A stretch of 32,000 nucleotides of DNA from Candidatus Iainarchaeum sp. (GCA_037441475.1 JBBISB010000001.1:637465-669464); one strand, 5' to 3'. Counted from the stretch's first letter, positions 6,521-18,675 are shown. Numbers and translations are program-made. The notes: a model not told the origin generated them from the sequence alone.

Positions 6521-7102
6521 TTATTTTAGTTTATTTAAAATATTTCTATTTTCTTCTAAAATATCTTTCATAATTTTTGTAAGTCCATTCATCTGTGCTT
6601 TAAGTTCTCTTACTTGCTCTTCAATTTCAGAAAGTTGTTTTGAATCAATTGTAGGTGCTATTGGTTTTTCTTTTTTTAAATTTTTAATAATATCTTCCTG
6701 ATTAATTTTATTAACATCACTTGTAGTTTTCTTAAGCTCTGTTTCTAAAAAATCTTCATATTTACTTTTGTTTTTTTCTATAAAATCTGTTTTAGTTGTT
6801 TTTTTAGAAATTACTTCTTTTTCAGGTTCTTCTTCATCAAGTTCTTCTTGAGAAATCTCTTCCTCTTCTTGAGAAGCATCTTCTTTTACAGAAGATAAAT
6901 TTTCTTCCTTTTCTTTTTTAACAGAAGTTAAAGGTTCTTCTTTCTTTTCTGTTTTTCTTGATGCTAAAACAGCATTATAATTATTTTCAATATCTTCTTC
7001 ATCAACACCTATGTCTTTAAGTGTCGAATAAATAGTTTCTTTATCTATATTAGCATCCATTAGTTCAATAATGGTGTCTTGAATTAATTTTTTTTCAACC
7101 AT
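6521..7102 (-). CDS. hypothetical acidic coiled-coil protein with a small N-terminal helical (UBA-like?) domain
   Basis: N-terminal IIELMDANIDKETIYSTLKDIGVDEEDIENNY, then a long E/K/S-rich linker, then a C-terminal heptad-like segment SEIEEQVRELKAQMNGLTKIMKDILEEN. Confidence 0.45.
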   Translation of the reverse strand: MVEKKLIQDTIIELMDANIDKETIYSTLKDIGVDEEDIENNYNAVLASRKTEKKEEPLTSVKKEKEENLSSVKEDASQEEEEISQEELDEEEPEKEVISKKTTKTDFIEKNKSKYEDFLETELKKTTSDVNKINQEDIIKNLKKEKPIAPTIDSKQLSEIEEQVRELKAQMNGLTKIMKDILEENRNILNKLK

Positions 7103-7211
7103 ACTTAATCTATATTCTAAACTATAATAGTTAATATCTTAAATGTAAGTTATTAAAAATGTTTTGTTTTAAATAATAAATATAATATATAATTTTACGA
7201 GATTTTTAAAT

Positions 7212-8648
7212 ATGATATCCTTAAACACATGGAACACTTTATATGAAGGCAAGTATGCTGATCAAGAGCTTAGTGTTCTCTATAAAGACGATATCTTTGT
7301 TTCTTTCTTAAGGTTAAGAGATAAAACAAATGTCTTAATACAGGTATATAAGGTTTTTGTTGTTAAAGGAGAGATTGAAACTTTTGCATCCACTCTTCCA
7401 TACCCTGCTATTGTTTATCATAAGCATGTGGATATTGGTTCTTCAAATAACTTTAAGTATCTTTTATTACATACAGACACAGAGTATATAGATGTAAATA
7501 CTCTTTCATATCATGTAGATAAAAAAATAACTGAACTAAATAAAATGATTGGTTCTGTAATCTCTGTTGTTAAGTCATATAACATTAAGTTAATTTCTTT
7601 AAAACTTGCAGAAAAAAGAGATAATGATTATTTTTTTTCAGATCCTGAAATCTTAAAATCACTTTCAAACATGCCTCTTTCCTTAGACTTTAAATCTTCA
7701 ACACCTTTAGATAAGTTAATCCTAGGTAAAAAGAAAGACGTAACAGTTACAACCTCTCTTTCAAACCTAAAGAATGTAACCGTCTATGGTCCTCTTCTTG
7801 ATGAAAGGTTGTTTGTTTCAAAGTTAATATGTGAAAATTATTTACTTTCTTCAAAAACAGTTATTGTCTTTGATACTTTAAACAACTATGTTAGTTTAGG
7901 GTATCCTCAACAAAACTCCAAGGTCTTAGAGGACTTTGAACTTAATATGGATGCTTTTGGTTTTCCAGTTAAAAAAATAAATTACTTAGATATTAATATT
8001 CCTCTAAGCAAAATACCTTTTGATGCTTTTGTAAATCTTTTTTCTTTTAAGGATGTTTCTTTAAAGATAATAAACCAGGTTTACAGTAAAGATATAATCA
8101 CTGTTAAAGATCTTATTTCAAGTGTTAAAAAAATAAAAGTTGATCAAGAGATTAATGATTTTGAAAAACAAAGAGTAATTTCAAAATTAATGGTCTTAGA
8201 TAAAAAATATGGTTCTTTCTTTGGAAAATCAGATATTTCTTTACTTTTTAAACAAAGATATCAAAATATTGGTTCTGTAAAGATAATTACCTTAAACCCT
8301 AAAGACCCTATTTACCCTTTCTTTATAAAAAACCTTGTTGAAGAGATTTCTTTGTCTGTTAAAGATGAGGTTTTATTGGTTTTTCCTGAGTTAAGTGCTG
8401 TTTTCAATAATCTTTATTTAGGAAGCAGTATAATGCAGACAATAAAAGATAATTCCACCTTAAACTCCTTAATAACAAGCAAGTCTGAAAATGACTTTAG
8501 GGAGGGTGTTTTTCCAGGTGTAAAGATACATGCCATAAAGGATAATGATGCTGTTATCTATTACCCTAACAGAGACCCTATAAGGCTTCTTTTAAGACCT
8601 ACTTTTACATCTAGTGTTATTAATTATAAGCTTAAGGACAAGTTTTAG
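7212..8648 (+). CDS. hypothetical protein, 478 aa (possibly a degenerate HerA/DUF87-like P-loop fold)
   Basis: Long ORF with a TATA-like AT box upstream. No intact Walker A. See the finding on the degenerate motif layout. Confidence 0.55.
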   Translation: MISLNTWNTLYEGKYADQELSVLYKDDIFVSFLRLRDKTNVLIQVYKVFVVKGEIETFASTLPYPAIVYHKHVDIGSSNNFKYLLLHTDTEYIDVNTLSYHVDKKITELNKMIGSVISVVKSYNIKLISLKLAEKRDNDYFFSDPEILKSLSNMPLSLDFKSSTPLDKLILGKKKDVTVTTSLSNLKNVTVYGPLLDERLFVSKLICENYLLSSKTVIVFDTLNNYVSLGYPQQNSKVLEDFELNMDAFGFPVKKINYLDINIPLSKIPFDAFVNLFSFKDVSLKIINQVYSKDIITVKDLISSVKKIKVDQEINDFEKQRVISKLMVLDKKYGSFFGKSDISLLFKQRYQNIGSVKIITLNPKDPIYPFFIKNLVEEISLSVKDEVLLVFPELSAVFNNLYLGSSIMQTIKDNSTLNSLITSKSENDFREGVFPGVKIHAIKDNDAVIYYPNRDPIRLLLRPTFTSSVINYKLKDKF

Positions 8649-8842
8649 TTTTTATGACGTAAGCTACATAACTGTTTAAAAACCACCCTTACCAAAACCT
8701 TTATATACCTGAAAAACTATGTTATTTATATAGGTATGCTTATTTCTATAAAATTTATATTAAGTTTAAAGGTATAAGTAAAAAAATATATGTTAAAAAA
8801 ACAACTATTTTTATAAACATTAAAAATATAGAGGTGTAAACA

Positions 8843-9748
8843 ATGGTTAAATGTCCAGAATGTGGAAACACAAAGGTCTACAGAGATTCAAAAAGTGGAG
8901 AATATATCTGTAGTAAATGTCATACTGTTTTATCAGATTACCAAATAGATACAGGTAAGGATTGGAGAACTTTTGATAATTCTGAAAAACAAGATAATGT
9001 TAGTACCGGTTCACCAATGAAGTATACAAAAATAAACAAAGGTCTTGAAACAATGATTGAAAGATCAGGAAGAGACTTGAGAGGAAACAAACTTTCCACA
9101 AAATCAAGAGCTCAGATGTACAGACTTATTAAATGGCATAAAAGATCTTCAATATCAAACTCAGTTCAAAGAAATTTATCCATAGCTTTAACAGAACTTA
9201 AAAGAATTTCATCTTACCTTAACATACCAAATCCTTTAGTTGAAACAGCAGCTTTACTTTACAGAAAGACTGTTGAAAAAGGACTTATAAGAGGAAGATT
9301 AATTGAGGCTGTTGTTGCTGCTGTTCTTTACTCTGTTTGTAGGACATACAATGTTCCAAGAACATTAAATGAAATGGCTGAAGCTTCAGGTCTTACAAAG
9401 AAAGAAATTGGAAGAACATATAGGTTTATTGTAAAAGAACTTGATATTGCTGTTCCTTTAACAGATCCTAGTTACTATATCTCAAGATTTGTTTCTGTTT
9501 TAACATTATCAGCTGAAGTTGAAAATAAAGCAAAAGTTATTGTTAAAAAAGCAATAGCATCAGGTTTAATCTCTGGAAGAGGTCCAACTGGTGTTGCTGC
9601 AGCTGCTGTTTACATAGCTGCTTTAATGACTGGTGAGAGAAGAACTCAAAAAGAGGTTGCAAATGTTGCTGGTGTAACTGAAGTAACCATAAGAAACAGA
9701 TACAGAGAGCTTAAAGCAAAACTTAAGCTTAACATAGATGGAGAGTAA
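8843..9748 (+). CDS. tfb: transcription initiation factor IIB (TFB)
   Basis: N-terminal Zn ribbon CPECG...CSKC, two cyclin-like repeats, and the hallmark C-terminal HTH AGVTEVTIRNRYRELK. GAGGTG Shine-Dalgarno element 6 nt upstream of the ATG. Confidence 0.95.
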   Translation: MVKCPECGNTKVYRDSKSGEYICSKCHTVLSDYQIDTGKDWRTFDNSEKQDNVSTGSPMKYTKINKGLETMIERSGRDLRGNKLSTKSRAQMYRLIKWHKRSSISNSVQRNLSIALTELKRISSYLNIPNPLVETAALLYRKTVEKGLIRGRLIEAVVAAVLYSVCRTYNVPRTLNEMAEASGLTKKEIGRTYRFIVKELDIAVPLTDPSYYISRFVSVLTLSAEVENKAKVIVKKAIASGLISGRGPTGVAAAAVYIAALMTGERRTQKEVANVAGVTEVTIRNRYRELKAKLKLNIDGE

Positions 9749-9824
9749 AATCTCTTTCTTTTCTTTTTCTTTTTAATTTAAATAATAAATACTATTTATA
9801 ATTTATTTGTTTTATAAATATCAT

Positions 9825-10286
9825 ATGGAACCAATTAAGATATCTTATAAGTAAGTAGAAGATTGGTGCAGAAAGATCTATCTTCAAGCAAAGAAACAAA
9901 ACTATTCTCCTGATATTCTTTTAGGAATATCTGTTGGTGGTCTTTTCCCTACAGTTCATCTTGCAAGACTTTTTAACACTAAAAATGTTGTTAGTATAGC
10001 TGTTAAGTCCTATGATAAAAACAAAAGAGGAAAGATAGAAGTTATTAACCTTCCCTCAAAACAACTTTTAAAAAATAAAAAAATATTAATTATTGATGAG
10101 ATCCTTGATTCTGGAAAAACAATTGAATTTATTTCTTCACTTTTAATAAACAAATTTCAGGTAAAAGAAATTAAGACAGCAACCATATATGTTAATAAAA
10201 AAAACTGTTCCTTCTATCCTGATTTCTATGTTAAAACAAACCCCCAGTGGCTTGATTTTCCATGGGATAGATTTGAAAAGGTTTAG
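9825..10286 (+). pseudogene. type I phosphoribosyltransferase (purine/xanthine-guanine PRT-like) interrupted by one in-frame TAA
   Basis: Hand translation gives MEPIKISYK*VEDWCRKIYLQAKKQNYSPDILLGISVGGLFPTVHLARLF...KKILIIDEILDSGKTIEF...DFPWDRFEKV*. PRPP-binding loop ILIIDEILDSGKT is present. TAA at 9852-9854. The 143 codons after it are stop-free and contain no in-frame ATG/GTG/TTG, which is why the ORF track misses them. Confidence 0.7.
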
Positions 10287-10389
10287 TTTATATATTTTTT
10301 GCCTCTTAAATATATATACTTGTAGAAATATGCAAGTGAATCTTTTTTAACTATTTAAAATTATAAAAAAAATAAAAATGTGATTACAA

Positions 10390-11307
10390 ATGAGTGAAAA
10401 TACAAATATTTACGATTTAGCAATTGTTGGAGGAGGAGCAGCAGCAATGTCATGTGCCCTTTACTCAGGAAGATATAAAATGTCTACTGTAATGTTTACA
10501 GATTCATTTGGAGGAACAACAGCCTCAGCCCACATGATTTGGAACTACCCTGGTTTTTTAGAAATCTCAGGTATGGACCTAATGTCAAAAATGACAGAAC
10601 AGATAAACCACCTTAAGATACCAATAAAGTATGAAAAGGTAATAGATATTAAAAAAGAAAATAATTACTTTATTGTAAACTCAGATCAAGAGTCTTTAAA
10701 AGCAAAAAAAATATTAATAGCCATAGGTATGAAGAAAAGAACCCTTAACATACAAGACGAAGATAAGTTTTTAGGAAAAGGCGTGCATTACTGTGCTACT
10801 TGTGATGGTGCTTTCTACAGAGATAAAGTGGTTGGAGTTATTGGAGGGTCTGACGCTGCAGTAACAGCAGCTCTTTTACTTTCAGAGCTTGGAAAAAAAG
10901 TTTACTTAATCTATAGAGGAACTTCCTTAAGAGCAGAACCTATGTGGCTTGATTCTCTTTACAAACAAAAAAATGTTGAGATTCTTTATAACTCTGAACT
11001 TAAAAAGTTAGTTGGTAATGAAAAATTAGAAAAAATTATTCTTAAGGACGATAAAGAAATTGTTCTTGATGGTATCTTTATAGAGATTGGTCATGTTCCA
11101 AACACAGAGCTTTTAGAAAAATTAAACCTTACCTTAGATTCACATGGAGAGATAATTGTTGATAGAGAGCAAAGAACAAATATACCTGGTGTCTTTGCTG
11201 CTGGAGATTGTACAAACCAATCTGAGCTTAAACAAATAGTAACTTCAACCTCCCAAGGAGCAGTGGCTGCCTACCATATGTTCAAGGATTTAAAGGCTGA
11301 ACAATGA
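10390..11307 (+). CDS. trxB: thioredoxin-disulfide reductase
   Basis: FAD motif VGGGAAA, redox-active CATCDG, NAD(P)H motif GGSDAAVTAA, C-terminal FAAGDC. Confidence 0.9.
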   Translation: MSENTNIYDLAIVGGGAAAMSCALYSGRYKMSTVMFTDSFGGTTASAHMIWNYPGFLEISGMDLMSKMTEQINHLKIPIKYEKVIDIKKENNYFIVNSDQESLKAKKILIAIGMKKRTLNIQDEDKFLGKGVHYCATCDGAFYRDKVVGVIGGSDAAVTAALLLSELGKKVYLIYRGTSLRAEPMWLDSLYKQKNVEILYNSELKKLVGNEKLEKIILKDDKEIVLDGIFIEIGHVPNTELLEKLNLTLDSHGEIIVDREQRTNIPGVFAAGDCTNQSELKQIVTSTSQGAVAAYHMFKDLKAEQ

Positions 11308-11413
11308 CAGCTATACATAAAAAGATACCTTTATTAAACATACCATTAATCATATTATTAAGGGGTTTTTTAAAAACATTTTTTAAATAAAATAACATCT
11401 AATAAAAACAATA

Positions 11414-12109
11414 ATGAGGGGTTTTATGACCGATATAAATAGTAAAGTAAAAAAGTCTTTTGAGTCAATTAATAAGAATCTTTATAGGACAAACAAGGTT
11501 TTAGAGCTTTATAACCCATTACATGATATAATAAACAGCTTAATAAACGATTATAAAGAAATTTATGAAATAGGAAAGAAAAACGAACATTTAGAAAAAG
11601 AAATTGAAGAAGAAATTAAAAAAAGAGAGCTCATCTCTTTGTTTAAGAAAATGCATTTAACTGTTGCTGAAATTAAAGAGGAAATGGATATTTTCTATAA
11701 AGAGATGCAAGATGCAGATAAGTTTTTTGAAAAATACAGAACATACAGAACATATGTTTTTACAGATACTTTAAAGGCAAAAGACTATATCCAAAAACTA
11801 ATCTCTTCCTTTGACATTAAAGACTTTATTTTAAAGTTTAATGTTGTTGGAACCATTGATCTTTCAGACATTTCAACAAAAGTAAAAGGTAAAAAACAAG
11901 GTATTGATATAGTTGTTCCATCTGAAAACCTTGGTTTAATCTTTGATGAAATCTTAAAGTCTAAGACAGTTAAGTTTAGATTAGTATCTGATGCTATAAC
12001 CATCTATTTCGAGAAAGACATTATTCTTTATATAGAAGGACAAAGTAAGAAAATCAAGTTATGTGATATTGAAGCACAAAACTTTAATGCTAAGGTTATT
12101 GAAGATTAA
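11414..12109 (+). CDS. hypothetical coiled-coil protein
   Basis: ORF. A GAGGGG Shine-Dalgarno-like element favours the internal ATG at 11426 as the true start. No family recognised. Confidence 0.5.
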   Translation: MRGFMTDINSKVKKSFESINKNLYRTNKVLELYNPLHDIINSLINDYKEIYEIGKKNEHLEKEIEEEIKKRELISLFKKMHLTVAEIKEEMDIFYKEMQDADKFFEKYRTYRTYVFTDTLKAKDYIQKLISSFDIKDFILKFNVVGTIDLSDISTKVKGKKQGIDIVVPSENLGLIFDEILKSKTVKFRLVSDAITIYFEKDIILYIEGQSKKIKLCDIEAQNFNAKVIED

Positions 12110-12156
12110 AAAAAACCTTAGTCTTTTTATTCTTTTTTAAACATGATTATTTCATT

Positions 12157-12822
12157 ATGGATAGATTAATAACAATCATTGACCAACCAAACTGGAAACT
12201 ACTATTATTTGATTTAGTTAAATCAAATGATTTTGATATTTGGAACATTGATATAGTATCCTTAACAGAGCTTTATTTAAAAAAAATAATTCAGCTTAAA
12301 GAGGGTAATTTAATGGTTCCTGCAAATGCTCTTTTAGCTGCCAGTATTCTACTTAAAATAAAAACATATACCTTAAAGCTTACAAGCATAGAACCTGAAG
12401 AAGAATTAATAATACCAAAAGAAGAGGATCTTTTGCTTAATGCTTTAAATCTTGATAACCAAATAAGGAATAAAGAAGGACAAGTTTCTTTAGATGACTT
12501 AATAGAAGCCATTGATTCTATAATGAATAGACCAACTAAAAAGAACTTAGAAAAAATGATTAAGGAAAAAGCTGAAATTGAATTTATTCTTCCAAGGACT
12601 ATTGAAGACATTAACTACAGGATAGATGTTCTTTATACCTCTATTAAAAAACAAGCTGATGATGAAGGTTGTTTAACTTTTAAAAAACTTTTTTCAAATA
12701 ACATTAATAACTTTGATGTTGTAAACAATCTTTTTATACCTCTTTTATTTCTTCATCAAGAAGAAAAAATAAATGTTTGGCAAGATGACTTTTTTTCTGA
12801 AATTTTTATAAAAGTTATTTAA
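12157..12822 (+). CDS. scpA: segregation and condensation protein A (kleisin ScpA)
   Basis: N-terminal ScpA signature: NWKLLLFDLVKSNDFDIWNIDIVSLTELYLKKI. Length and helical C-terminus fit the family. Confidence 0.8.
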   Translation: MDRLITIIDQPNWKLLLFDLVKSNDFDIWNIDIVSLTELYLKKIIQLKEGNLMVPANALLAASILLKIKTYTLKLTSIEPEEELIIPKEEDLLLNALNLDNQIRNKEGQVSLDDLIEAIDSIMNRPTKKNLEKMIKEKAEIEFILPRTIEDINYRIDVLYTSIKKQADDEGCLTFKKLFSNNINNFDVVNNLFIPLLFLHQEEKINVWQDDFFSEIFIKVI

Positions 12823-12880
12823 TTTTTTCTTTTTAAGTAATTTTTTCTTTTTTCTTTGTTTAATCTTTTTTTTAAAAACT

Positions 12881-12923
12881 TTAACACATATTTATAAATA
12901 TTATGTATGTATATTTTATCTAT
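12881..12923 (+). promoter_or_regulatory. candidate archaeal promoter block (TATA core TTTATAAATA at 12891-12900), duplicated at 14793-14835
   Basis: The 43-nt block ttaacacatatttataaatattatgtatgtatattttatctat is 40/43 identical to the block upstream of the second adhesin gene. It lies 57 nt upstream of the ATG at 12957. Confidence 0.5.
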
Positions 12924-12956
12924 TTTGTAGTTATTATTTAAGAAGGACCTTGTCTT

Positions 12957-14741
12957 ATGAAAAAAATAAAAAAACTTATTTCTAAAAATAAAGATGTGAA
13001 AAAAGATATGAATCATAATAAAAAAGCTCAAGTCTCAATTGAGATGATTGTTATTTTAGGAATATTGATTTTAGGTGCTGTTATTTTAGCAACCTTTCTA
13101 GGTCTTTTTGGTGAAAAAACAACCCAGTTAACAGATCTTAATGAAGTTGCTGAAGGTACTTTTGATGGTTTTTTAAATAATTTAGGAAATTCTTCAGATG
13201 GAAGTTTCCCACAGCAGCCAGGAGGTACAGGAATAAACTATACTTTAACATTAATTCCAAACAATGCATCTTTTGGAACAGCAAACACCTCTGGTAGTTA
13301 TCAGTCAGGTTCTTTAGTAACTGTTACAGCAACTCCTAGTGCAGGTTATTCTTTTGTAAACTGGACAATCACTTCAACAGGTGTTGTTGCAAGTACAAAT
13401 GCAAGTTATTCTTTTACAATGCCAACAAACAATTTAGGTTTAACAGCTAATTTTTCTTCAAAAGCTCCTACCTTATATACCTTATCATTAGTTGAAAATC
13501 CAAATGAACCTAATGCAACATTGATTGGTGCTGGAAGTTATGCCGCAGGAACAGTAGTTTCAGTTTCCATAACCACTACAGGTTCAATATTTTTTAATAA
13601 TTGGACAAACCAAGGCGGAACTGTAGTAAGCTCTGTTGCAAATTTTAATTATACAATGCCTGCAAGTAATACAACATTAACAGCAAACTTTTCTACTGCT
13701 GCAACTATGGTTTCTTATTTCACTTCTACATGGGATACAACAAAAACAAGCCCAGGTTCTTCTAATAGTAATCAAATAAAATTACCATTAGTTCCAACAG
13801 GGACATATAACTTCGTTGTTTATTGGGGAGATAGAACTACAAACACTATAACCACTTGGAATTCTTCAAATGCAACCCATACATACTCTTCACCTGGAGA
13901 GTACACAATATATATCTCAGGTGTAATAAATGGATTTTCATTTAATAATTCTGGAGATAAATTAAAATTATTACGAATAGGTTCTTGGGGTCAATTAAAC
14001 TTAGGAAATACAGGTGGTTATTTCTATGGTGCACAAAATCTAGAAATAGATGCAGCAGATTCTCTTGATTTAAGAGGAACAACAAATTTATCTTCTATGT
14101 TTAGAGATTGTTCTTCAATTACAACTATTCCTTCATTAAATAAATGGGATGTTACATATGTAACTGATATGAGTTCAATGTTTTCATATGCAACTTCATT
14201 TAATGCTCCTTTAAATACTTGGGATGTTAGAAATGTAACAAATATGTCTGGGATGTTTAATGGAGCTACTTCTTTTAATCAATATATAAATGACTGGGAC
14301 ACTTCAAATGTTAGTGATATGCAATACATGTTTTTAGGTGCAGAAAAATTTAACCAGCCCTTAAACCAATGGAATGTTTCAAATGTTAGAAATATGGCTG
14401 GAATGTTTGCAAGTGCACAGAATTTTGATCAACCTTTAAACAGTTGGGATGTTTCGAAGGTAACGCTTATGGAGGGTATGTTTGGTAATGCGTATTCTTT
14501 TGATCAGCCTTTAGATAGATGGGATATTTCAAACGTTATTTTTATGGATTATTTTTTTGGAGATATAACTTTATCCACTAAAAATTATGATGCAATATTA
14601 AATTCTTGGGCTAATCAAAAATTAAAACAAAATGTTGTTTTTGATGCAGGGTATAGTAAGTATAGTTCTTCTGGTGAAGCTGCAAGAGATGTATTAATTA
14701 AAAACTATAATTGGACTATTAAAGATGGCGGTCTTCAGTAA
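12957..14741 (+). CDS. class III signal peptide (type IV pilin-like) surface protein with 2 InlB-B-repeat-like domains, a PKD-like module and DUF285/BspA-like 26-residue repeats
   Basis: ...NHNKKA|QVSIEMIVILGILILGAVILATFL is an archaeal prepilin-type signal. An alternative start is ATG 13008 (MNHNKKAQ). Repeats at 13239-13454 and 13476-13691 (...GYSFVNWT...LTANF). PKD-like module WGDRTTN...THTYSSPGEYTIYISG. About 7 repeats of W[DN]V.NVT.M..MF..A.SFNQPL. Confidence 0.85.
   Translation: MKKIKKLISKNKDVKKDMNHNKKAQVSIEMIVILGILILGAVILATFLGLFGEKTTQLTDLNEVAEGTFDGFLNNLGNSSDGSFPQQPGGTGINYTLTLIPNNASFGTANTSGSYQSGSLVTVTATPSAGYSFVNWTITSTGVVASTNASYSFTMPTNNLGLTANFSSKAPTLYTLSLVENPNEPNATLIGAGSYAAGTVVSVSITTTGSIFFNNWTNQGGTVVSSVANFNYTMPASNTTLTANFSTAATMVSYFTSTWDTTKTSPGSSNSNQIKLPLVPTGTYNFVVYWGDRTTNTITTWNSSNATHTYSSPGEYTIYISGVINGFSFNNSGDKLKLLRIGSWGQLNLGNTGGYFYGAQNLEIDAADSLDLRGTTNLSSMFRDCSSITTIPSLNKWDVTYVTDMSSMFSYATSFNAPLNTWDVRNVTNMSGMFNGATSFNQYINDWDTSNVSDMQYMFLGAEKFNQPLNQWNVSNVRNMAGMFASAQNFDQPLNSWDVSKVTLMEGMFGNAYSFDQPLDRWDISNVIFMDYFFGDITLSTKNYDAILNSWANQKLKQNVVFDAGYSKYSSSGEAARDVLIKNYNWTIKDGGLQ
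13256..13416 (+). repeat. near-identical block A shared by the two adhesin paralogs (partner 15177-15337)
   Basis: 157/161 nt identical by hand alignment, while the sequence immediately upstream of the block is unalignable. Confidence 0.85.
13845..13961 (+). repeat. perfectly identical block B shared by the two adhesin paralogs (partner 16750-16866)
   Basis: 117/117 nt identical. The extended segment 13821-13970 vs 16726-16875 has only 4 mismatches, and the flanks are clearly more diverged. Confidence 0.9.
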
Positions 14742-14744
14742 TCC

Positions 14745-14752
14745 TTTTTTTT
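14745..14752 (+). terminator. oligo-T tract (T8) immediately after the first adhesin gene
   Basis: taatccTTTTTTTTaaaa starts 4 nt after the stop. Oligo-T tracts are the usual archaeal termination signal. Followed by a fresh promoter block. Confidence 0.4.
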
Positions 14753-14760
14753 AAAAATAA

Positions 14761-14792
14761 TTAGTAATTATCTTATTTAGTAATTATCTTAT
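14761..14792. repeat. perfect 16-nt tandem duplication (ttagtaattatcttat x2)
   Basis: Read directly from the sequence. Sits immediately 5' of the duplicated promoter block. Confidence 0.9.
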
Positions 14793-14835
14793 TTAACACA
14801 TGTTTATAAATATTATGTATTAATATTTTATCTAT
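14793..14835 (+). promoter_or_regulatory. candidate archaeal promoter block (TATA core TTTATAAATA at 14803-14812), copy of 12881-12923
   Basis: 40/43 identity to the upstream copy. The 15-mer atgtttataaatatt (14800-14814) also recurs exactly at 24901-24915, upstream of the GT2 gene. Confidence 0.5.
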
Positions 14836-14874
14836 ATACATCCTTATGTTATAAAATTATAAGCGTCTTTAATT

Positions 14875-17673
14875 ATGAAGAAAATAAAAAATAAATTAGT
14901 TATTAAAAAAAAAGAGAAGAAAGATATGAATAAAAATAAAAAAGCCCAGGTCTCAATAGAGATGATAATTATTTTATCTGTTTTAATTTTAGGGGCAGTA
15001 GTATTTGCATCTTTACTTCTAGGCTTTTTTAATAAAAGTGTTGATAGAAACACAGATGTTGATGATGTAGCAAGTAATACTGTTAATAGCTTCATTAAAG
15101 ATCTTGTAAATTATAATGATAGTAATAATCAAACCACTCCAAGTCCAACACCAATATTTTATAATCTAGTATTAACTCCAAACAATCCTTCTTTTGGAAC
15201 AGCAAACACCTCTGGTAGTTATCAGTCAGGGTCTTTAGTAACTGTTACAGCAACTCCTAGTGCAGGTTATTCTTTTGTAAACTGGACAATCACTTCAACA
15301 GGTGTGGTTGCAAGTACAAATGCAAGTTATTCTTTTAATATGCCTTCAAGTAATTTAAGCTTATCAGCAAACTTTGTTTTAGCCCCTCCTACAAACTGTA
15401 CTTTAACCTTAAACAGAAATCCTGTTTCAGGTGGAACAGTTTCAGGCGCAGGGACTTTTCCTTGTAATTCTTCTGTGACAGCAACAGCAACTCCTGCAAT
15501 TAACTATGCTTTCACTAATTGGACAACAACAAGTGGGACTGTTACAACAAACCATTATACTTTTAATTTAAATTCTTCTCAAACATTAACAGCAAACTTT
15601 ACACCTTCTGCTTATAATCTTAATTTAACAAAATCAGGAAGTGGAACTGGAACTGTTACAAGTTCTCCTGTTGGTATATCTTGTGGTTCAAGTTGTACTA
15701 CAGCATCTTATGCTTTTCCTGTTAATCAACTTGTTACTTTAACAGCAACTGTTGTTAGTGGACATACTTTTGCAGGTTGGTCAGGGGATTGTTCAGGCAC
15801 AAATCAAACCTGTACTGTTACAATGTCTCAAGCAAGAAATGTAACTGCAACTTTTAATCTTCCAAACATATATTTATTATCTGTATCTAAAGAAAATCCG
15901 CTTGGTGGCTGGGTTGTAAGTTCTGGACCTACCCTAGGTATTAGTTGTGGTTCTGATTGTTCTGAAATTTATTCTTTAGGAGTTAATGTTTCTTTAACAA
16001 CAACAAATCTTCTTCCAGGTTATACTTTTGTTGAATGGAGAGATGCTTGTACAGGATCTGCAGCTATCTGTTCATTTACTATGGATGGTCCAAAATATGT
16101 AACTGCTGTTTTTGCTCCTATTAATCATACTTTAAATGTAAATAAAGTAAATCCTTCTTACGGTCTTGTACAGACTGTTTCTCCATCTACAGGAATTATC
16201 TGTGGTCTTGATTGCTCTGAAAGTTATTTTTATGGAACTAATGTTACTTTAAATGCTTCTGGTTTAAGTGGGGGAACTTTTGCAAGATGGTCTGGTGCTG
16301 GTTGTTCAGGCACAGATAACTGTATAGTTACAATGGATGCTGCAAAAACTGTAACTGCAACTTTTAATGCTCCTGTTTCAAATTATTTATTAACTGTTAA
16401 TAAGAATGGTACTGGTTCAGGAAGAGTTGTAAGTTCTACAATAGGTATTGATTGTGGAAGTACATGTTCTGCAAATTATGCTCAAGGAACAGTTATTAGT
16501 TTAACAGCTAATCCTGATGCAGGAAATACTTTTACTGGATGGTTAGGAGATTGTTCTGGAACTGGTCAATGTTTTGTGACTATGGATTCTGCAAAAAATG
16601 TTACTGCTGTATTTAATGCTACTAATTCATTCATTTCTAAATGGGTTACAAATAATTCTGAAGAAAGTAATTCTAATCAAATAAAATTACCGCTTGTTTC
16701 TTCTGGAACTTATAAATTTACAGTATATTGGGGAGATGGAACTACAAATACTATAACCACTTGGAATTCTTCAAATGCAACCCATACATACTCTTCACCT
16801 GGAGAGTACACAATATATATCTCAGGTGTAATAAATGGATTTTCATTTAATAATTCTGGAGATAAACTTAAATTAACTCAAATTTCAAAGTGGGGACCAT
16901 TAAGACTTGGAAATACAGGTTCTTATTTCTATGGTGCACAAAACCTAACAATAACTGCAACAGATGTTTTAGATTTAACTGGTACTACAAATTTATCTTT
17001 AATGTTTAGTAACTGTTCTTCAATAACAACAATTCCTTCTATTAATAGTTGGAATGTTTCAAATGTTACAAATATGGGATTTATGTTTTATTATGCAAGT
17101 CAGTTTAATAGTCCTTTAAATAATTGGAATGTTTCAAATGTAACGAATATGCAGAGTATGTTTTATGGTGCAACTAATTTCAACCAACCAATCGGAGATT
17201 GGAATGTTTCAAATGTAACGAATATGAGTAATATGTTTTCTTATGCAACTGCTTTCAACCAACCAATCGGTTCTTGGAATGTTTCAAAAGTAACTACAAT
17301 GCAAAGAATGTTTTTTCGTGCTTCTAATTTTAATAGACCTGTAGGAGATTGGAATGTTTCAAGTGTGAATAATATGGAAGGTATGTTTTTGAATGCATCT
17401 AGCTTTAATCAACCTCTTGGTAATTGGAATCCAATAAATGTAAATAATTTTTCAATGTTTATTTCTAATACCAGGTGTTGTATTTTATCTACTGCAAATT
17501 ATGATAATTTATTAATTGGATGGTCTTCTAAAAATTTGCAAAGAAATGTTAGATTAGATGTAGGTACAAGATATAGCTCAGCAGGTGAAACTGCAAGACA
17601 ATCAATTATAACTAACTATAATTGGTATATTCATGATAATGGTAAGCAGTGGTTAAAAATATTTATAAATTAA
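14875..17673 (+). CDS. class III signal peptide (type IV pilin-like) giant surface protein with 6 InlB-B-repeat-like domains (4 cysteine-containing), a PKD-like module and DUF285/BspA-like repeats
   Basis: ...NKNKKA|QVSIEMIIILSVLILGAVVFASLLL. Alternative start ATG 14926. Repeats span 15160-16617; the last four each contain GIxCGxxC...GW.G.C.G...C.VTM....VTA.F. Then WGDGTTN...THTYSSPGEYTIYISG and about 8 WNVSNVTNM..MF..A..FNQPI repeats. Confidence 0.85.
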   Translation: MKKIKNKLVIKKKEKKDMNKNKKAQVSIEMIIILSVLILGAVVFASLLLGFFNKSVDRNTDVDDVASNTVNSFIKDLVNYNDSNNQTTPSPTPIFYNLVLTPNNPSFGTANTSGSYQSGSLVTVTATPSAGYSFVNWTITSTGVVASTNASYSFNMPSSNLSLSANFVLAPPTNCTLTLNRNPVSGGTVSGAGTFPCNSSVTATATPAINYAFTNWTTTSGTVTTNHYTFNLNSSQTLTANFTPSAYNLNLTKSGSGTGTVTSSPVGISCGSSCTTASYAFPVNQLVTLTATVVSGHTFAGWSGDCSGTNQTCTVTMSQARNVTATFNLPNIYLLSVSKENPLGGWVVSSGPTLGISCGSDCSEIYSLGVNVSLTTTNLLPGYTFVEWRDACTGSAAICSFTMDGPKYVTAVFAPINHTLNVNKVNPSYGLVQTVSPSTGIICGLDCSESYFYGTNVTLNASGLSGGTFARWSGAGCSGTDNCIVTMDAAKTVTATFNAPVSNYLLTVNKNGTGSGRVVSSTIGIDCGSTCSANYAQGTVISLTANPDAGNTFTGWLGDCSGTGQCFVTMDSAKNVTAVFNATNSFISKWVTNNSEESNSNQIKLPLVSSGTYKFTVYWGDGTTNTITTWNSSNATHTYSSPGEYTIYISGVINGFSFNNSGDKLKLTQISKWGPLRLGNTGSYFYGAQNLTITATDVLDLTGTTNLSLMFSNCSSITTIPSINSWNVSNVTNMGFMFYYASQFNSPLNNWNVSNVTNMQSMFYGATNFNQPIGDWNVSNVTNMSNMFSYATAFNQPIGSWNVSKVTTMQRMFFRASNFNRPVGDWNVSSVNNMEGMFLNASSFNQPLGNWNPINVNNFSMFISNTRCCILSTANYDNLLIGWSSKNLQRNVRLDVGTRYSSAGETARQSIITNYNWYIHDNGKQWLKIFIN

Positions 17674-17722: not shown

Positions 17723-18196
17723 ATGATAAACAAAAAAGGACAAGTCTCTATTGAGTTAATTATTTTAGTTGGTATGCTTATTATAGGTGCTGTTGTTTTA
17801 TCTGTTACTTTGATTAGTTCATATAAAAAAAATATAGAAACAACAGATGATACTGCAAAAAAACAAAGTAACCTTATAGATAATTTTGTAGAAGATCTTG
17901 ATGATGTTCAATCCGGAAACTCTGGAGGACAGATAAATCAATTTAGTGTTACTCTTACTAATCCACGTCCAATTAGTTATCCTCCTGGAAATGTATCTTT
18001 TAATATTTCATATGATTATAATGTAGGTCCAGTTACTTGTAATTGGGATTTAAGTTCTATGACATATGGAGAGCAAAATTTCCAAGGTTGTTCTACTTTA
18101 CGTAATTTAGGTTTAGGAGAATATACTGCAGATTACACAGTTACAGATGGTTCTAGCACTAGAACAGGGACTGTGTCCTTTAGAGTTAATAATTAA
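17723..18196 (+). CDS. small type IV pilin-like protein (class III signal peptide) with a PKD/Ig-like C-terminal domain
   Basis: MINKKG|QVSIELIILVGMLIIGAVVLSVTLI has a short canonical leader. The C-terminus ...CNWDL...LGLGEYTADYTVTDGSSTRTGTVSFRV resembles a PKD fold. A TTTATAAAT core lies 53 nt upstream. Confidence 0.8.
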   Translation: MINKKGQVSIELIILVGMLIIGAVVLSVTLISSYKKNIETTDDTAKKQSNLIDNFVEDLDDVQSGNSGGQINQFSVTLTNPRPISYPPGNVSFNISYDYNVGPVTCNWDLSSMTYGEQNFQGCSTLRNLGLGEYTADYTVTDGSSTRTGTVSFRVNN

Positions 18197-18210: not shown

Positions 18211-18675
18211 ATGGACCAAACAAGTAGTGATTACCTTAAGCAAGCAATAGAGGCAATCCTCTTTTTATCCCCAAAATCTATTTCTTTATCAAAGATATAT
18301 GCCTCTTTTCCAAACATCCCAAAGAACATAATAGATATCCAGATAGATGACTTGATAAACAGTTATCAAAAAAGACAAACATCTTTAGAAATTGTAAAAG
18401 ATAACAATAAACTTGAAATTGTTGTAAAACCAGAGTTTCATTCCTTTAACATCTTTGCAACAGGAACAACTCTCTCAAAATCAGAGCTTAAGACCTTAGC
18501 CTTCATCTCTTTAAATGCCCCAGTAGAGCAAGCAAAGATAAGTAAGAAAAGACCTTTTGAAGATCTAAAGATATTAAAAGACCTAGATCTAATATCTATT
18601 GAAAAGAAGGGACGAAAGAATATCTTACAAACAACCAAAAAATTTTCTCTTCTCTTTAAAAATAAGAAAAAGTAA
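18211..18675 (+). CDS. scpB: segregation and condensation protein B (ScpB)
   Basis: N-terminal signature LKQAIEAILFLSPKSISLSKI (family consensus 'EAlLFas.epls'). The size fits a single or double wHTH protein. Starts 14 nt after the pilin-like gene stop. Confidence 0.8.
   Translation: MDQTSSDYLKQAIEAILFLSPKSISLSKIYASFPNIPKNIIDIQIDDLINSYQKRQTSLEIVKDNNKLEIVVKPEFHSFNIFATGTTLSKSELKTLAFISLNAPVEQAKISKKRPFEDLKILKDLDLISIEKKGRKNILQTTKKFSLLFKNKKK

What the first reader, a model, noticed from the sequence alone, without database searches (positions are those of the whole stretch)
13256..16866. Mosaic identity between the two adhesin paralogs suggests recent gene conversion or cassette exchange
Hand alignment shows two islands of near-identity between paralogs that are otherwise clearly diverged. 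Island A is 13256-13416 vs 15177-15337, with 157/161 nt identical. Island B is 13845-13961 vs 16750-16866, with 117/117 nt identical. The sequence just 5' of island A cannot be aligned, and the DUF285 repeat regions differ substantially. Identity at synonymous sites over 117 nt is not explained by protein-level constraint alone. It points to recombination between the tandem paralogs. Such recombination could also drive changes in repeat number (2 vs 6 B-repeats) and surface variation.
Basis: seen in the sequence. Interest (0 to 1): 0.6.

Follow-up and report, generated by a model that had tools for sequence, protein, structure and literature searches.

The report
Gene-conversion patches between archaeal adhesin paralogs
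Two neighbouring surface-adhesin genes of a tiny DPANN archaeon are old, strongly diverged duplicates, but short stretches of 140-170 bases have recently been copied from one gene to the other; this is a real but ordinary case of gene conversion in a surface-protein family.

Summary
Both are far beyond chance (0 of 20000 shuffles). Synonymous divergence is 0.03-0.075 inside the islands and 0.8-1.1 outside. The outside value matches the divergence between species of this genus. The signal-peptide leader is conserved as protein but has dS 1.1, so protein constraint does not produce nucleotide identity here.

A third paralog about 449 kb away shares a separate patch with gene 2 (157/170), at a place where genes 1 and 2 are only about 60% alike. 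Gene 2 is therefore a mosaic of two donors. A sister species has a similar island at the same scpA-scpB locus.

The best reading is recent short-tract ectopic gene conversion among pilin-signal, B-repeat plus PARCEL/DUF285 adhesin genes. RadA is encoded in the genome. This is a known kind of process in a new host group.

Read-level support could not be tested because the run finder was unavailable. The claimed link to the 2-versus-6 repeat difference is not shown. However, another public assembly of this genome carries about one extra B-repeat in gene 2.

The parts
12880..12923 (+). Promoter block of gene 1. It contains a TATA-like TTTATAAATA at about 12891-12900 and is 41/44 identical to the block upstream of gene 2.
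   Evidence: (D13). Sequence on both sides of the block, including the 5' UTR, is unalignable. The promoter role is inferred from position and the TATA-like motif.
12957..14741 (+). Gene 1 (594 aa). It has a class III (prepilin-type) signal/TM helix, a disordered linker, 2 B-repeat beta domains and a PARCEL/DUF285 solenoid module.
   Evidence: ORF, Pfam, NCBIfam. AlphaFold model with mean pLDDT 82.
13250..13416 (+). Island A, copy in gene 1 (aa 99-154). It covers all but the last strand of B-repeat domain 1.
   Evidence: (dS 0.075).
13821..13961 (+). Island B, copy in gene 1 (aa 289-335). It lies inside the N-terminal beta subdomain of the DUF285 module.
   Evidence: (dS 0.032).
13962..14240 (+). 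Segment 3' of island B with intermediate divergence from gene 2 (dS 0.48). It may be an older conversion tract. At a low mismatch penalty the tract runs 13821-14134 (270/314).
   Evidence: Calling it an older tract is an inference.
14792..14835 (+). Promoter block of gene 2, the partner of 12880-12923.
14875..17673 (+). Gene 2 (932 aa). It has the same architecture as gene 1 but with 6 B-repeat units; units 3-6 are a four-cysteine subtype.
15171..15337 (+). Island A, copy in gene 2.
16372..16620 (+). Last B-repeat unit of gene 2, where two assemblies of this genome disagree. The NCBI record carries a 100-N gap and about 133 nt absent from the window, consistent with one extra in-frame 252-nt unit.
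   Evidence: The size of the extra unit is an inference from the repeat register.
16726..16866 (+). Island B, copy in gene 2.
17125..17294 (+). Third tract. Here gene 2 is 157/170 identical (core 99/102) to the distant paralog g3 at G000:C1:205094-205263, while gene 1 and gene 2 are only about 60% alike.
   Evidence: site patterns 7:51:12; dS 0.12 vs 1.0-3.2 in the flanks.
17723..18196 (+). Small third gene with a class III signal peptide (157 aa). It belongs to the same cluster but not to the identity islands.
12157..12822 (+). scpA, the conserved left border of the variable adhesin cluster.
18211..18675 (+). scpB, the conserved right border of the variable adhesin cluster.

Best explanation
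Genes 1 and 2 are an old tandem duplication of an archaeal surface adhesin. Each has a prepilin-type signal/anchor, a B-repeat stalk and a PARCEL/DUF285 repeat head. After they had diverged to near saturation at silent sites, short stretches were overwritten by the paralog's sequence through non-reciprocal homologous recombination (ectopic gene conversion). This happened at least twice between genes 1 and 2 (islands A and B). It happened once between gene 2 and a third family member about 449 kb away. The recombinase was presumably the genome's own RadA.

What is shown: the mosaic pattern, its statistical significance, its restriction to silent-site identity, the incongruence among three paralogs, the presence of RadA, and a comparable island in a sister species.

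What is inferred: the mechanism (conversion, not some other replacement), the direction of transfer, and any consequence for the cell surface. As by-products, the islands are in-frame direct repeats 1921 and 2905 nt apart. Crossing-over at them would produce chimeric adhesins or change gene copy number.
For: Identity of the islands. 0 of 20000 shuffles reach the observed identical runs. dS is 0.075 and 0.032 inside the islands vs 0.83-1.13 in the flanks. The flank dS matches that of flanking housekeeping orthologs between this genome and a same-genus genome (0.36-2.3). The signal/leader segment has dS 1.14 with dN 0.22, so protein constraint alone does not give nucleotide identity in these genes. 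Identical codons are in excess given identical amino acids (P about 1e-7). In island B, paralog g3 is only 53-55% identical in nucleotides although its protein is related. Informative sites are 52:1:1 for (g1,g2) in island B but 7:51:12 in favour of (g2,g3) in g2 17119-17304, and about equal elsewhere. The g2-g3 tract is 157/170 with dS 0.12. Island ends do not coincide with domain ends. A RadA/Rad51 gene is present (306 bits). Apart from one 6.35-kb tandem duplication and the contig-end overlap (96 nt), these tracts and g3's internal repeat (95 nt) are the longest exact repeats of the 769-kb genome. A 250-nt island of 88% identity, with 60-nt windows reaching 90-98%, lies between the tandem pilin-signal genes at the syntenic scpA-scpB locus of same-genus genome G001.
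Against: No reads could be examined, so the assembly of this repeat-rich locus is unverified. The two available assemblies agree on the islands but are probably built from the same data, and they disagree 130-260 nt upstream of island B. The same contig holds a perfect 6352-nt tandem duplication, which may be an assembly error and lowers trust in how repeats were handled. No second strain was found, so no donor/recipient polarity or population variants are available. Island B coincides with the most conserved protein motif of the family, so part of its identity at replacement sites is expected anyway.
Confidence: 0.8

Rival explanations
1. Assembly or polishing artefact. The assembler took one path through both paralogs, or read-based polishing homogenised two similar stretches, so the near-identity is not in the organism.
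For: This is a metagenome-type assembly with 100-N gaps. Another assembly version breaks inside gene 2's repeat array and differs there. A perfect 6352-nt tandem duplication elsewhere on the contig looks suspicious. Reads could not be checked.
Against: A graph path error needs shared k-mers at both ends of the swapped stretch, so most of a 117-nt exact run would have to be truly shared (inference). Island A keeps four private differences that split it into runs of 41, 74 and 31 nt, so the two copies were assembled separately. Polishing can only homogenise sequences that are already similar enough for reads to mis-map, whereas the flanks are 50-70% identical. The g2-g3 tract and the G001 island show the same pattern at independent places and in an independent genome.
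Confidence: 0.07
2. Both genes independently received the same segments from a third source, for example another strain's allele or a mobile PARCEL cassette, and did not copy from each other.
For: PARCEL/DUF285 sequences are reported to spread by horizontal transfer and intragenomic shuffling (PMC2996958). The scpA-scpB cluster differs in gene number and architecture between species of the genus.
Against: No other copy of either island exists in the genome. None was found in the metagenome or species-representative collections by exact 29-30-mers. No protein above 55% identity to gene 1 was found among 5.8 billion clusters. Two independent hits of the same segment at homologous in-frame positions is less parsimonious than one transfer between neighbours.
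Confidence: 0.05
3. Selection on the nucleotide sequence itself keeps the islands identical, for example an embedded RNA, an internal regulatory site or a recombination box.
For: The 44-nt promoter block shows that short non-coding elements are conserved between the two genes. In the S. aureus lpl cluster a conserved central nucleotide segment within each ORF is read as a recombination site (PMC2568036).
Against: No Rfam family reaches its gathering score anywhere in the two genes. g3 carries the homologous protein segment at only 53-55% nucleotide identity. Same-genus orthologs share no such nucleotide conservation, with adhesin proteins only 35-45% identical. The g2-g3 tract lies in a different part of the gene, so there is no fixed box.
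Confidence: 0.03
4. Template/variable repeat pair of a diversity-generating retroelement (DGR).
For: The repeat size (about 120-160 nt) is right. DGRs are known in DPANN archaea (from memory). The genome encodes a reverse transcriptase.
Against: The four differences in island A are G/C, A/T, T/G and T/G, which is not adenine-specific on either strand. Island B has none in 117 nt. The RT genes lie about 290 kb away, and no island copy lies near them. The islands are not at the C-terminus of the target proteins.
Confidence: 0.01

Closest known systems
Staphylococcus aureus lpl tandem lipoprotein paralog cluster (Tsuru and Kobayashi 2008, PMC2568036)
   Same: Both are tandem paralogous surface-protein genes that are diverged overall but share a highly conserved nucleotide segment inside each ORF. 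In both, the phylogenies of gene parts are incongruent, and homologous recombination at the conserved segment is read as shuffling the variable parts.
   Different: The lpl case is bacterial and was resolved with more than ten genomes and many paralogs, all sharing one central conserved region. Here there is one genome, two tandem genes plus one distant gene, and three different tracts each shared by only one pair.
Gene conversion between paralogous adhesin/outer-membrane genes of Helicobacter pylori (homA/homB, alpA family; PMC2795765 and PMC5971833 listed; babA/babB from memory)
   Same: In both cases segmental non-reciprocal exchange between adhesin paralogs at separate or adjacent loci produces chimeric adhesins.
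   Different: The H. pylori case has been demonstrated experimentally and in populations of a host-associated bacterium. Here the exchange is only inferred from one archaeal assembly.
PARCEL / DUF285 (BspA-like) repeat surface proteins (Roske et al. 2010, PMC2996958)
   Same: Both genes pass the curated cut-offs of DUF285 (PF03382) and the PARCEL repeat model TIGR02167. The paper describes tandem paralogs placed among housekeeping genes and proposes intragenomic shuffling and recombination between variant copies.
   Different: The paper found no archaeal example in 2010 and showed no conversion tracts. Here the PARCEL module is attached to an archaeal prepilin-type signal peptide and not to a lipoprotein signal.
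Neisseria pilE/pilS pilin antigenic variation (from memory)
   Same: Both involve pilin-type proteins in which short segments are replaced by gene conversion from paralogous copies.
   Different: Neisseria uses promoterless silent cassettes, a dedicated initiation site and a high programmed frequency. Here all three copies are complete genes with their own starts and signal peptides, and nothing indicates programming.

Membership tests
Ectopic (non-allelic) gene conversion between paralogs | Tracts of much higher identity than the rest of the paralog alignment, beyond chance | tested here: met
   0 of 20000 codon-column shuffles reach the observed runs of 74 and 117 nt.
Ectopic (non-allelic) gene conversion between paralogs | The excess identity holds at synonymous sites and is not explained by protein constraint | tested here: met
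   dS is 0.03-0.075 inside vs 0.83-1.13 outside. Codon identity given the same amino acid is 93/96 inside vs 64% outside. The leader is conserved as protein with dS 1.1.
Ectopic (non-allelic) gene conversion between paralogs | Phylogenetic incongruence along the gene when a third sequence is added | tested here: met
   Site patterns are 52:1:1 vs 7:51:12 in different segments. Max chi-square is 40.3, with 0 of 2000 permutations reaching it.
Ectopic (non-allelic) gene conversion between paralogs | Replacement in place, with homologous and colinear in-frame flanks | tested here: met
   Both flanks of each island align as protein in the same order. The offsets of 1921 and 2905 nt equal the 1918-nt gene offset plus multiples of 3.
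Ectopic (non-allelic) gene conversion between paralogs | The pattern is present in the organism's DNA and not only in the assembly | not testable with these tools
PARCEL / DUF285 repeat surface proteins | Tandem 25-26-residue repeats matching PF03382 / TIGR02167 above the curated cut-off | tested here: met
   PF03382 scores 190 and 193 bits (cut-off 25). TIGR02167 scores 76 and 102 bits (cut-off 30).
Archaeal type IV pilin-like (class III signal peptide) proteins | N-terminal class III signal peptide followed by a hydrophobic helix | tested here: inconclusive
   PF04021 scores 17.3 bits for gene 1, below the 23.7 cut-off. The KKAQ/VSIEM motif followed by a predicted helix at aa 28-47 is present. 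Three prepilin peptidase genes and five T2SSE ATPase genes are in the genome. Processing itself was not tested.
Diversity-generating retroelement target (VR/TR pair) | Differences between the repeats confined to adenines of the template repeat | tested here: not met
   The differences are G/C, A/T, T/G and T/G in island A and none in island B.
Diversity-generating retroelement target (VR/TR pair) | Reverse transcriptase close to the repeats | tested here: not met
   The only RVT_1 matches are at C1:360158 and C1:366509, about 290 kb away.
Programmed pilin antigenic variation (pilE/pilS type) | Silent, promoterless donor cassettes feeding one expression locus | tested here: not met
   All three paralogs are full-length ORFs with start codon and signal peptide. 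Genes 1 and 2 each have the conserved promoter block.

The most novel reading that the evidence does not exclude
Short-patch gene conversion among pilin-anchored PARCEL adhesin genes may be a selected surface-variation mechanism of these ultrasmall, probably host-attached archaea. On this reading the scpA-scpB cluster is a variation hotspot. The identity islands would serve as in-frame recombination joints that reshuffle stalk length and binding head, and so change which partner cell can be bound.
Probability: 0.1. Interest if true: 0.6.

Novelty: new member of a known kind. Interest (0 to 1): 0.3.

Why it matters
DPANN archaea have very small genomes and are thought to depend on attachment to other cells, yet little is known about how their surface proteins diversify. 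This locus shows that, in a 769-kb genome with almost no other repeats, homologous recombination between adhesin paralogs has occurred recently and repeatedly. It links tandem and distant family members. The result gives a concrete place to look for surface variation once population or long-read data exist. It is also a warning for annotation and assembly: gene 2's repeat array already differs between two public versions of this genome. The process itself is well known in bacteria, so this extends a known mechanism to a new host group and does not reveal a new one.

Tried and rejected

(2) Other strains: exact 29-30-mers from both islands found nothing in metagenome contigs or genome contigs. 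The 5.8-billion-cluster protein search gave no hit above 55% identity to gene 1 apart from itself. Gene 2's exact product is not on record.

(3) DGR: rejected on the mismatch spectrum and the distance to the RT genes. A blastn self-comparison of the RT-bearing unit printed no repeat at E <= 1e-3.

(4) Embedded RNA: no Rfam family reaches its gathering score in the genes.

(5) Stacked alleles of two strains mis-assembled in tandem: the 3' flanks of the two genes share only a T/A run, and the 5' flanks share only the 44-nt promoter block. Nothing supports this, though only reads could exclude it.

(6) Fold search of the gene 1 model against the PDB gave no match with E <= 0.001. There were only weak LRR and Ig-like pilus-adhesin resemblances.

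(7) A tree of DUF285 modules with orthologs was started but dropped. Variable repeat number and short unmasked length would give an unresolved tree, so the three-paralog site-pattern test was used instead.

Full report
**Observation.** The two ORFs are 12957-14741 (594 aa, gene 1) and 14875-17673 (932 aa, gene 2), both on the + strand. Island A, 13256-13416 vs 15177-15337, is 157/161 identical. Island B, 13845-13961 vs 16750-16866, is 117/117 identical. A codon-guided alignment of the two alignable modules gives slightly larger maximum-scoring tracts. These are 13250-13416 vs 15171-15337 (162/167) and 13821-13961 vs 16726-16866 (139/141). Outside the islands, 30-codon windows show 47-80% nucleotide identity and about 43-77% third-position identity. 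In 20000 shuffles of codon columns per module, the longest identical run never exceeded 53 and 60 nt, against 74 and 117 nt observed.

**What the genes are.** Pfam finds the divergent InlB B-repeat domain (Flg_new_2) twice in gene 1 and six times in gene 2, followed by DUF285. It also gives a sub-threshold class III signal peptide match. NCBIfam names the DUF285 repeats PARCEL repeats (TIGR02167) and the B-repeats TIGR02543. An AlphaFold model of gene 1 (mean pLDDT 82) shows these elements:
- a helix at aa 28-47, directly after the KKAQ/VSIEM motif;
- a disordered linker at aa 49-92;
- two beta domains at aa 94-168 and 174-247;
- a confident module at aa 255-594, with an N-terminal beta subdomain and then a repeat solenoid.

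Island A covers aa 99-154, which is all but the last strand of the first B-repeat domain. Island B covers aa 289-335, inside the beta subdomain. Neither island ends at a domain border. The genome is 769 kb in two contigs with about 28% GC. Its close relatives' proteins are labelled as a DPANN-type 'ainarchaeum' by NCBI. It encodes three prepilin peptidases and five T2SSE-type ATPases. The reading as pilin-signal-anchored adhesins is therefore reasonable, but it is inferred.

**Is the identity more than protein constraint?** Nei-Gojobori estimates are:

| Segment | dS | dN |
|---|---|---|
| Island A | 0.075 | 0.016 |
| Island B | 0.032 | 0.009 |
| Linker before A | 0.88 | 0.69 |
| Segment after A | 0.83 | 0.64 |
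| Segment before B | 0.94 | 0.41 |
| Distal DUF285 part | 0.97 | 0.45 |
| 13962-14240 | 0.48 | 0.26 |
| Signal/leader | 1.14 | 0.22 |

The 13962-14240 segment is intermediate and may be an older tract. The signal/leader segment is an internal control: it is conserved as protein, so constraint on the protein does not yield nucleotide identity in these genes. Among codons encoding the same amino acid, the identical codon is used in 50/52 and 43/44 cases inside the islands, against 64% outside (P about 5e-8 and 1e-7). For scale, flanking housekeeping orthologs between this genome and the same-genus genome G003 have dS 0.36-2.3. The two paralogs are thus about as old as the species of the genus, and the islands are at least ten times younger.

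**A third paralog makes gene 2 a mosaic of two donors.** The genome has a third DUF285 gene, g3, within the stop-to-stop frame G000:C1:203717-205468. It has its own class III-type signal and a different stalk. In island B, g3 is only 53-55% identical in nucleotides to genes 1 and 2. In gene 2's repeat region, however, 17125-17294 matches g3 205094-205263 at 157/170 (core 99/102), with dS 0.12 against 1.0-3.2 in the flanks. Genes 1 and 2 are about 60% identical there. Informative sites run 52:1:1 for (g1,g2) in island B and 7:51:12 in favour of (g2,g3) in that tract. The three patterns are roughly equal elsewhere. The maximum chi-square of 40.3 was never reached in 2000 permutations. The two loci are about 449 kb apart, so the exchange is not limited to tandem neighbours.

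**How unusual this is in the genome and in relatives.** A scan for exact repeats of 30 nt or more found one perfect 6352-nt tandem duplication, simple tandem arrays and the contig-end overlaps. After these, island B (117 nt), g3's internal repeat (95 nt), island A (74 nt) and the g2-g3 tract (72 and 71 nt) are the longest exact repeats of the whole genome. The cluster sits between scpA and scpB. That frame is conserved in same-genus genomes G003, G004 and G001, where flanking proteins are 66-97% identical. The genes in between differ in number and architecture and are only 35-45% identical. In G001, the two tandem pilin-signal genes at this locus share a 250-nt stretch at 88% identity, with 60-nt windows reaching 90-98%, against background identity on either side. 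This is an independent instance of the same pattern.

**Mechanism.** The flanks of each island are homologous, colinear and in frame. The offsets of 1921 and 2905 nt equal the 1918-nt gene offset plus multiples of three. The simplest account is therefore in-place, non-reciprocal replacement, that is, ectopic gene conversion. A RadA/Rad51 gene is present. Direction and timing cannot be derived from one genome. As direct in-frame repeats, the islands would also allow crossing-over that fuses gene 1's 5' part to gene 2's 3' part or changes copy number. That is an inference and was not observed. The 44-nt block upstream of both genes (41/44 identical, with a TATA-like motif) is flanked by unalignable sequence. 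Its extent fits a core promoter, so selection is as likely as conversion there.

**Assembly question.** The NCBI record GCA_964526055.1 (CAZGHU010000001.1) is another version of the same genome. It is identical to window 6957-16324, including gene 1, both copies of island A and the first five B-repeats of gene 2. It is identical again from 16436 onward, including island B. Between those points it has a 100-N gap, preceded by about 133 nt that the window lacks. Of these, 37 nt are unique and 96 nt are 97% identical to the end of unit 5, in frame. With a true gap of about 64 nt this would be exactly one extra 252-nt unit, whose first 119 nt equal unit 6. The window version thus equals that version minus one unit, deleted between identical stretches. 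This is either an assembler collapse or a real length variant.

This disagreement does not touch the islands. A path error in an assembly graph needs truly shared k-mers at both ends of the swapped stretch. Island A also keeps four private differences. An artefact therefore cannot create the pattern from 50-70% identical sequence (inference). I put the artefact reading at about 7%.

**Other rivals.**
- A DGR is excluded. The mismatches are not adenine-specific, and the only reverse transcriptase genes lie about 290 kb away.
- No Rfam family reaches its gathering score in the genes.
- No other copy of the islands exists in the genome or in the scanned collections, which argues against a third donor.
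- All copies are complete genes, so there is no silent-cassette system.

**Comparison with the known.** Segmental conversion and recombination among paralogous surface-protein genes is well documented in bacteria. The S. aureus lpl tandem cluster, with its conserved intragenic segment and incongruent gene halves (PMC2568036), is the closest formal analogue. H. pylori adhesin paralogs are another. PARCEL/DUF285 proteins were proposed to diversify by intragenomic shuffling, and no archaeal members were known in 2010 (PMC2996958). A literature search for gene conversion together with DPANN and surface proteins returned one paper, on DNA methylation. A 2026 survey of archaeal type 4 filament systems mentions adhesin-like proteins, but its passages on DPANN and adhesins do not mention such exchange.

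**Verdict.** The finding is real and well supported at sequence level. It is a new example of a known process and not a new kind of system. The suggested link to the 2-versus-6 repeat difference is not supported: units 3-6 of gene 2 are a distinct four-cysteine subtype absent from gene 1.

Noticed in passing
G000:C1:358557-371259 (outside the window): A perfect 6352-nt tandem duplication (100% identical copies). Each copy holds an RVT_1 reverse transcriptase match interrupted by one TAA and a 455-aa protein with a class III-type signal peptide. The end points lie in or at the edge of a proteasome-like gene and inside a helicase-like gene. It is either very recent or an assembly error. A blastn self-comparison of the unit printed no repeat at E <= 1e-3.
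   Followed up: partly
window 16372-16620 vs L019 9424-9767: Two public versions of this genome disagree on gene 2's B-repeat array. The NCBI record has a 100-N gap and about one extra in-frame unit that is itself a mosaic of units 5 and 6.
   Followed up: yes
window 31582-31808: Five head-to-tail copies of a G+C-rich 34-nt unit (85-100% identical) in a 28% GC genome, close to the contig end (D2).
   Followed up: no
G000:C1:379046-380811 (-) vs C1:501931-503945 (+): Another dispersed paralog pair, 76-81% identical over about 1.8 kb, with exact stretches up to 63 nt. One copy lies in genes with Fn3-associated-type motifs. In the other copy my script listed no methionine-initiated ORF of 150 aa or more, so it may be decayed.
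   Followed up: partly
L022 (G001:C3) 7799-8150 vs 9132-9483: In the sister species, the 3' 280 nt of scpA plus 70 nt downstream are repeated (90% over 352 nt) on the other side of a 259-aa ORF inserted at the cluster's edge. This looks like the footprint of an insertion by recombination.
   Followed up: partly
L030 (G005:C38) 8479-8768 vs 10541-10830: A 290-nt direct repeat (96.6%) brackets a two-gene insert next to a 959-aa pilin-signal DUF285 adhesin in another same-genus genome.
   Followed up: no
G000:C1 ends vs C2 ends: Both ends of contig 1 overlap the ends of contig 2 in reverse orientation (92-97% over about 110 nt), partly through 15-nt tandem repeats. The two contigs probably close into one circle.
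   Followed up: no
G000:C1:205018-205283 (gene g3): The 75-nt PARCEL units inside g3 are 92% identical to each other over 191 nt, with a 95-nt exact stretch. This indicates recent intragenic duplication or homogenisation.
   Followed up: partly
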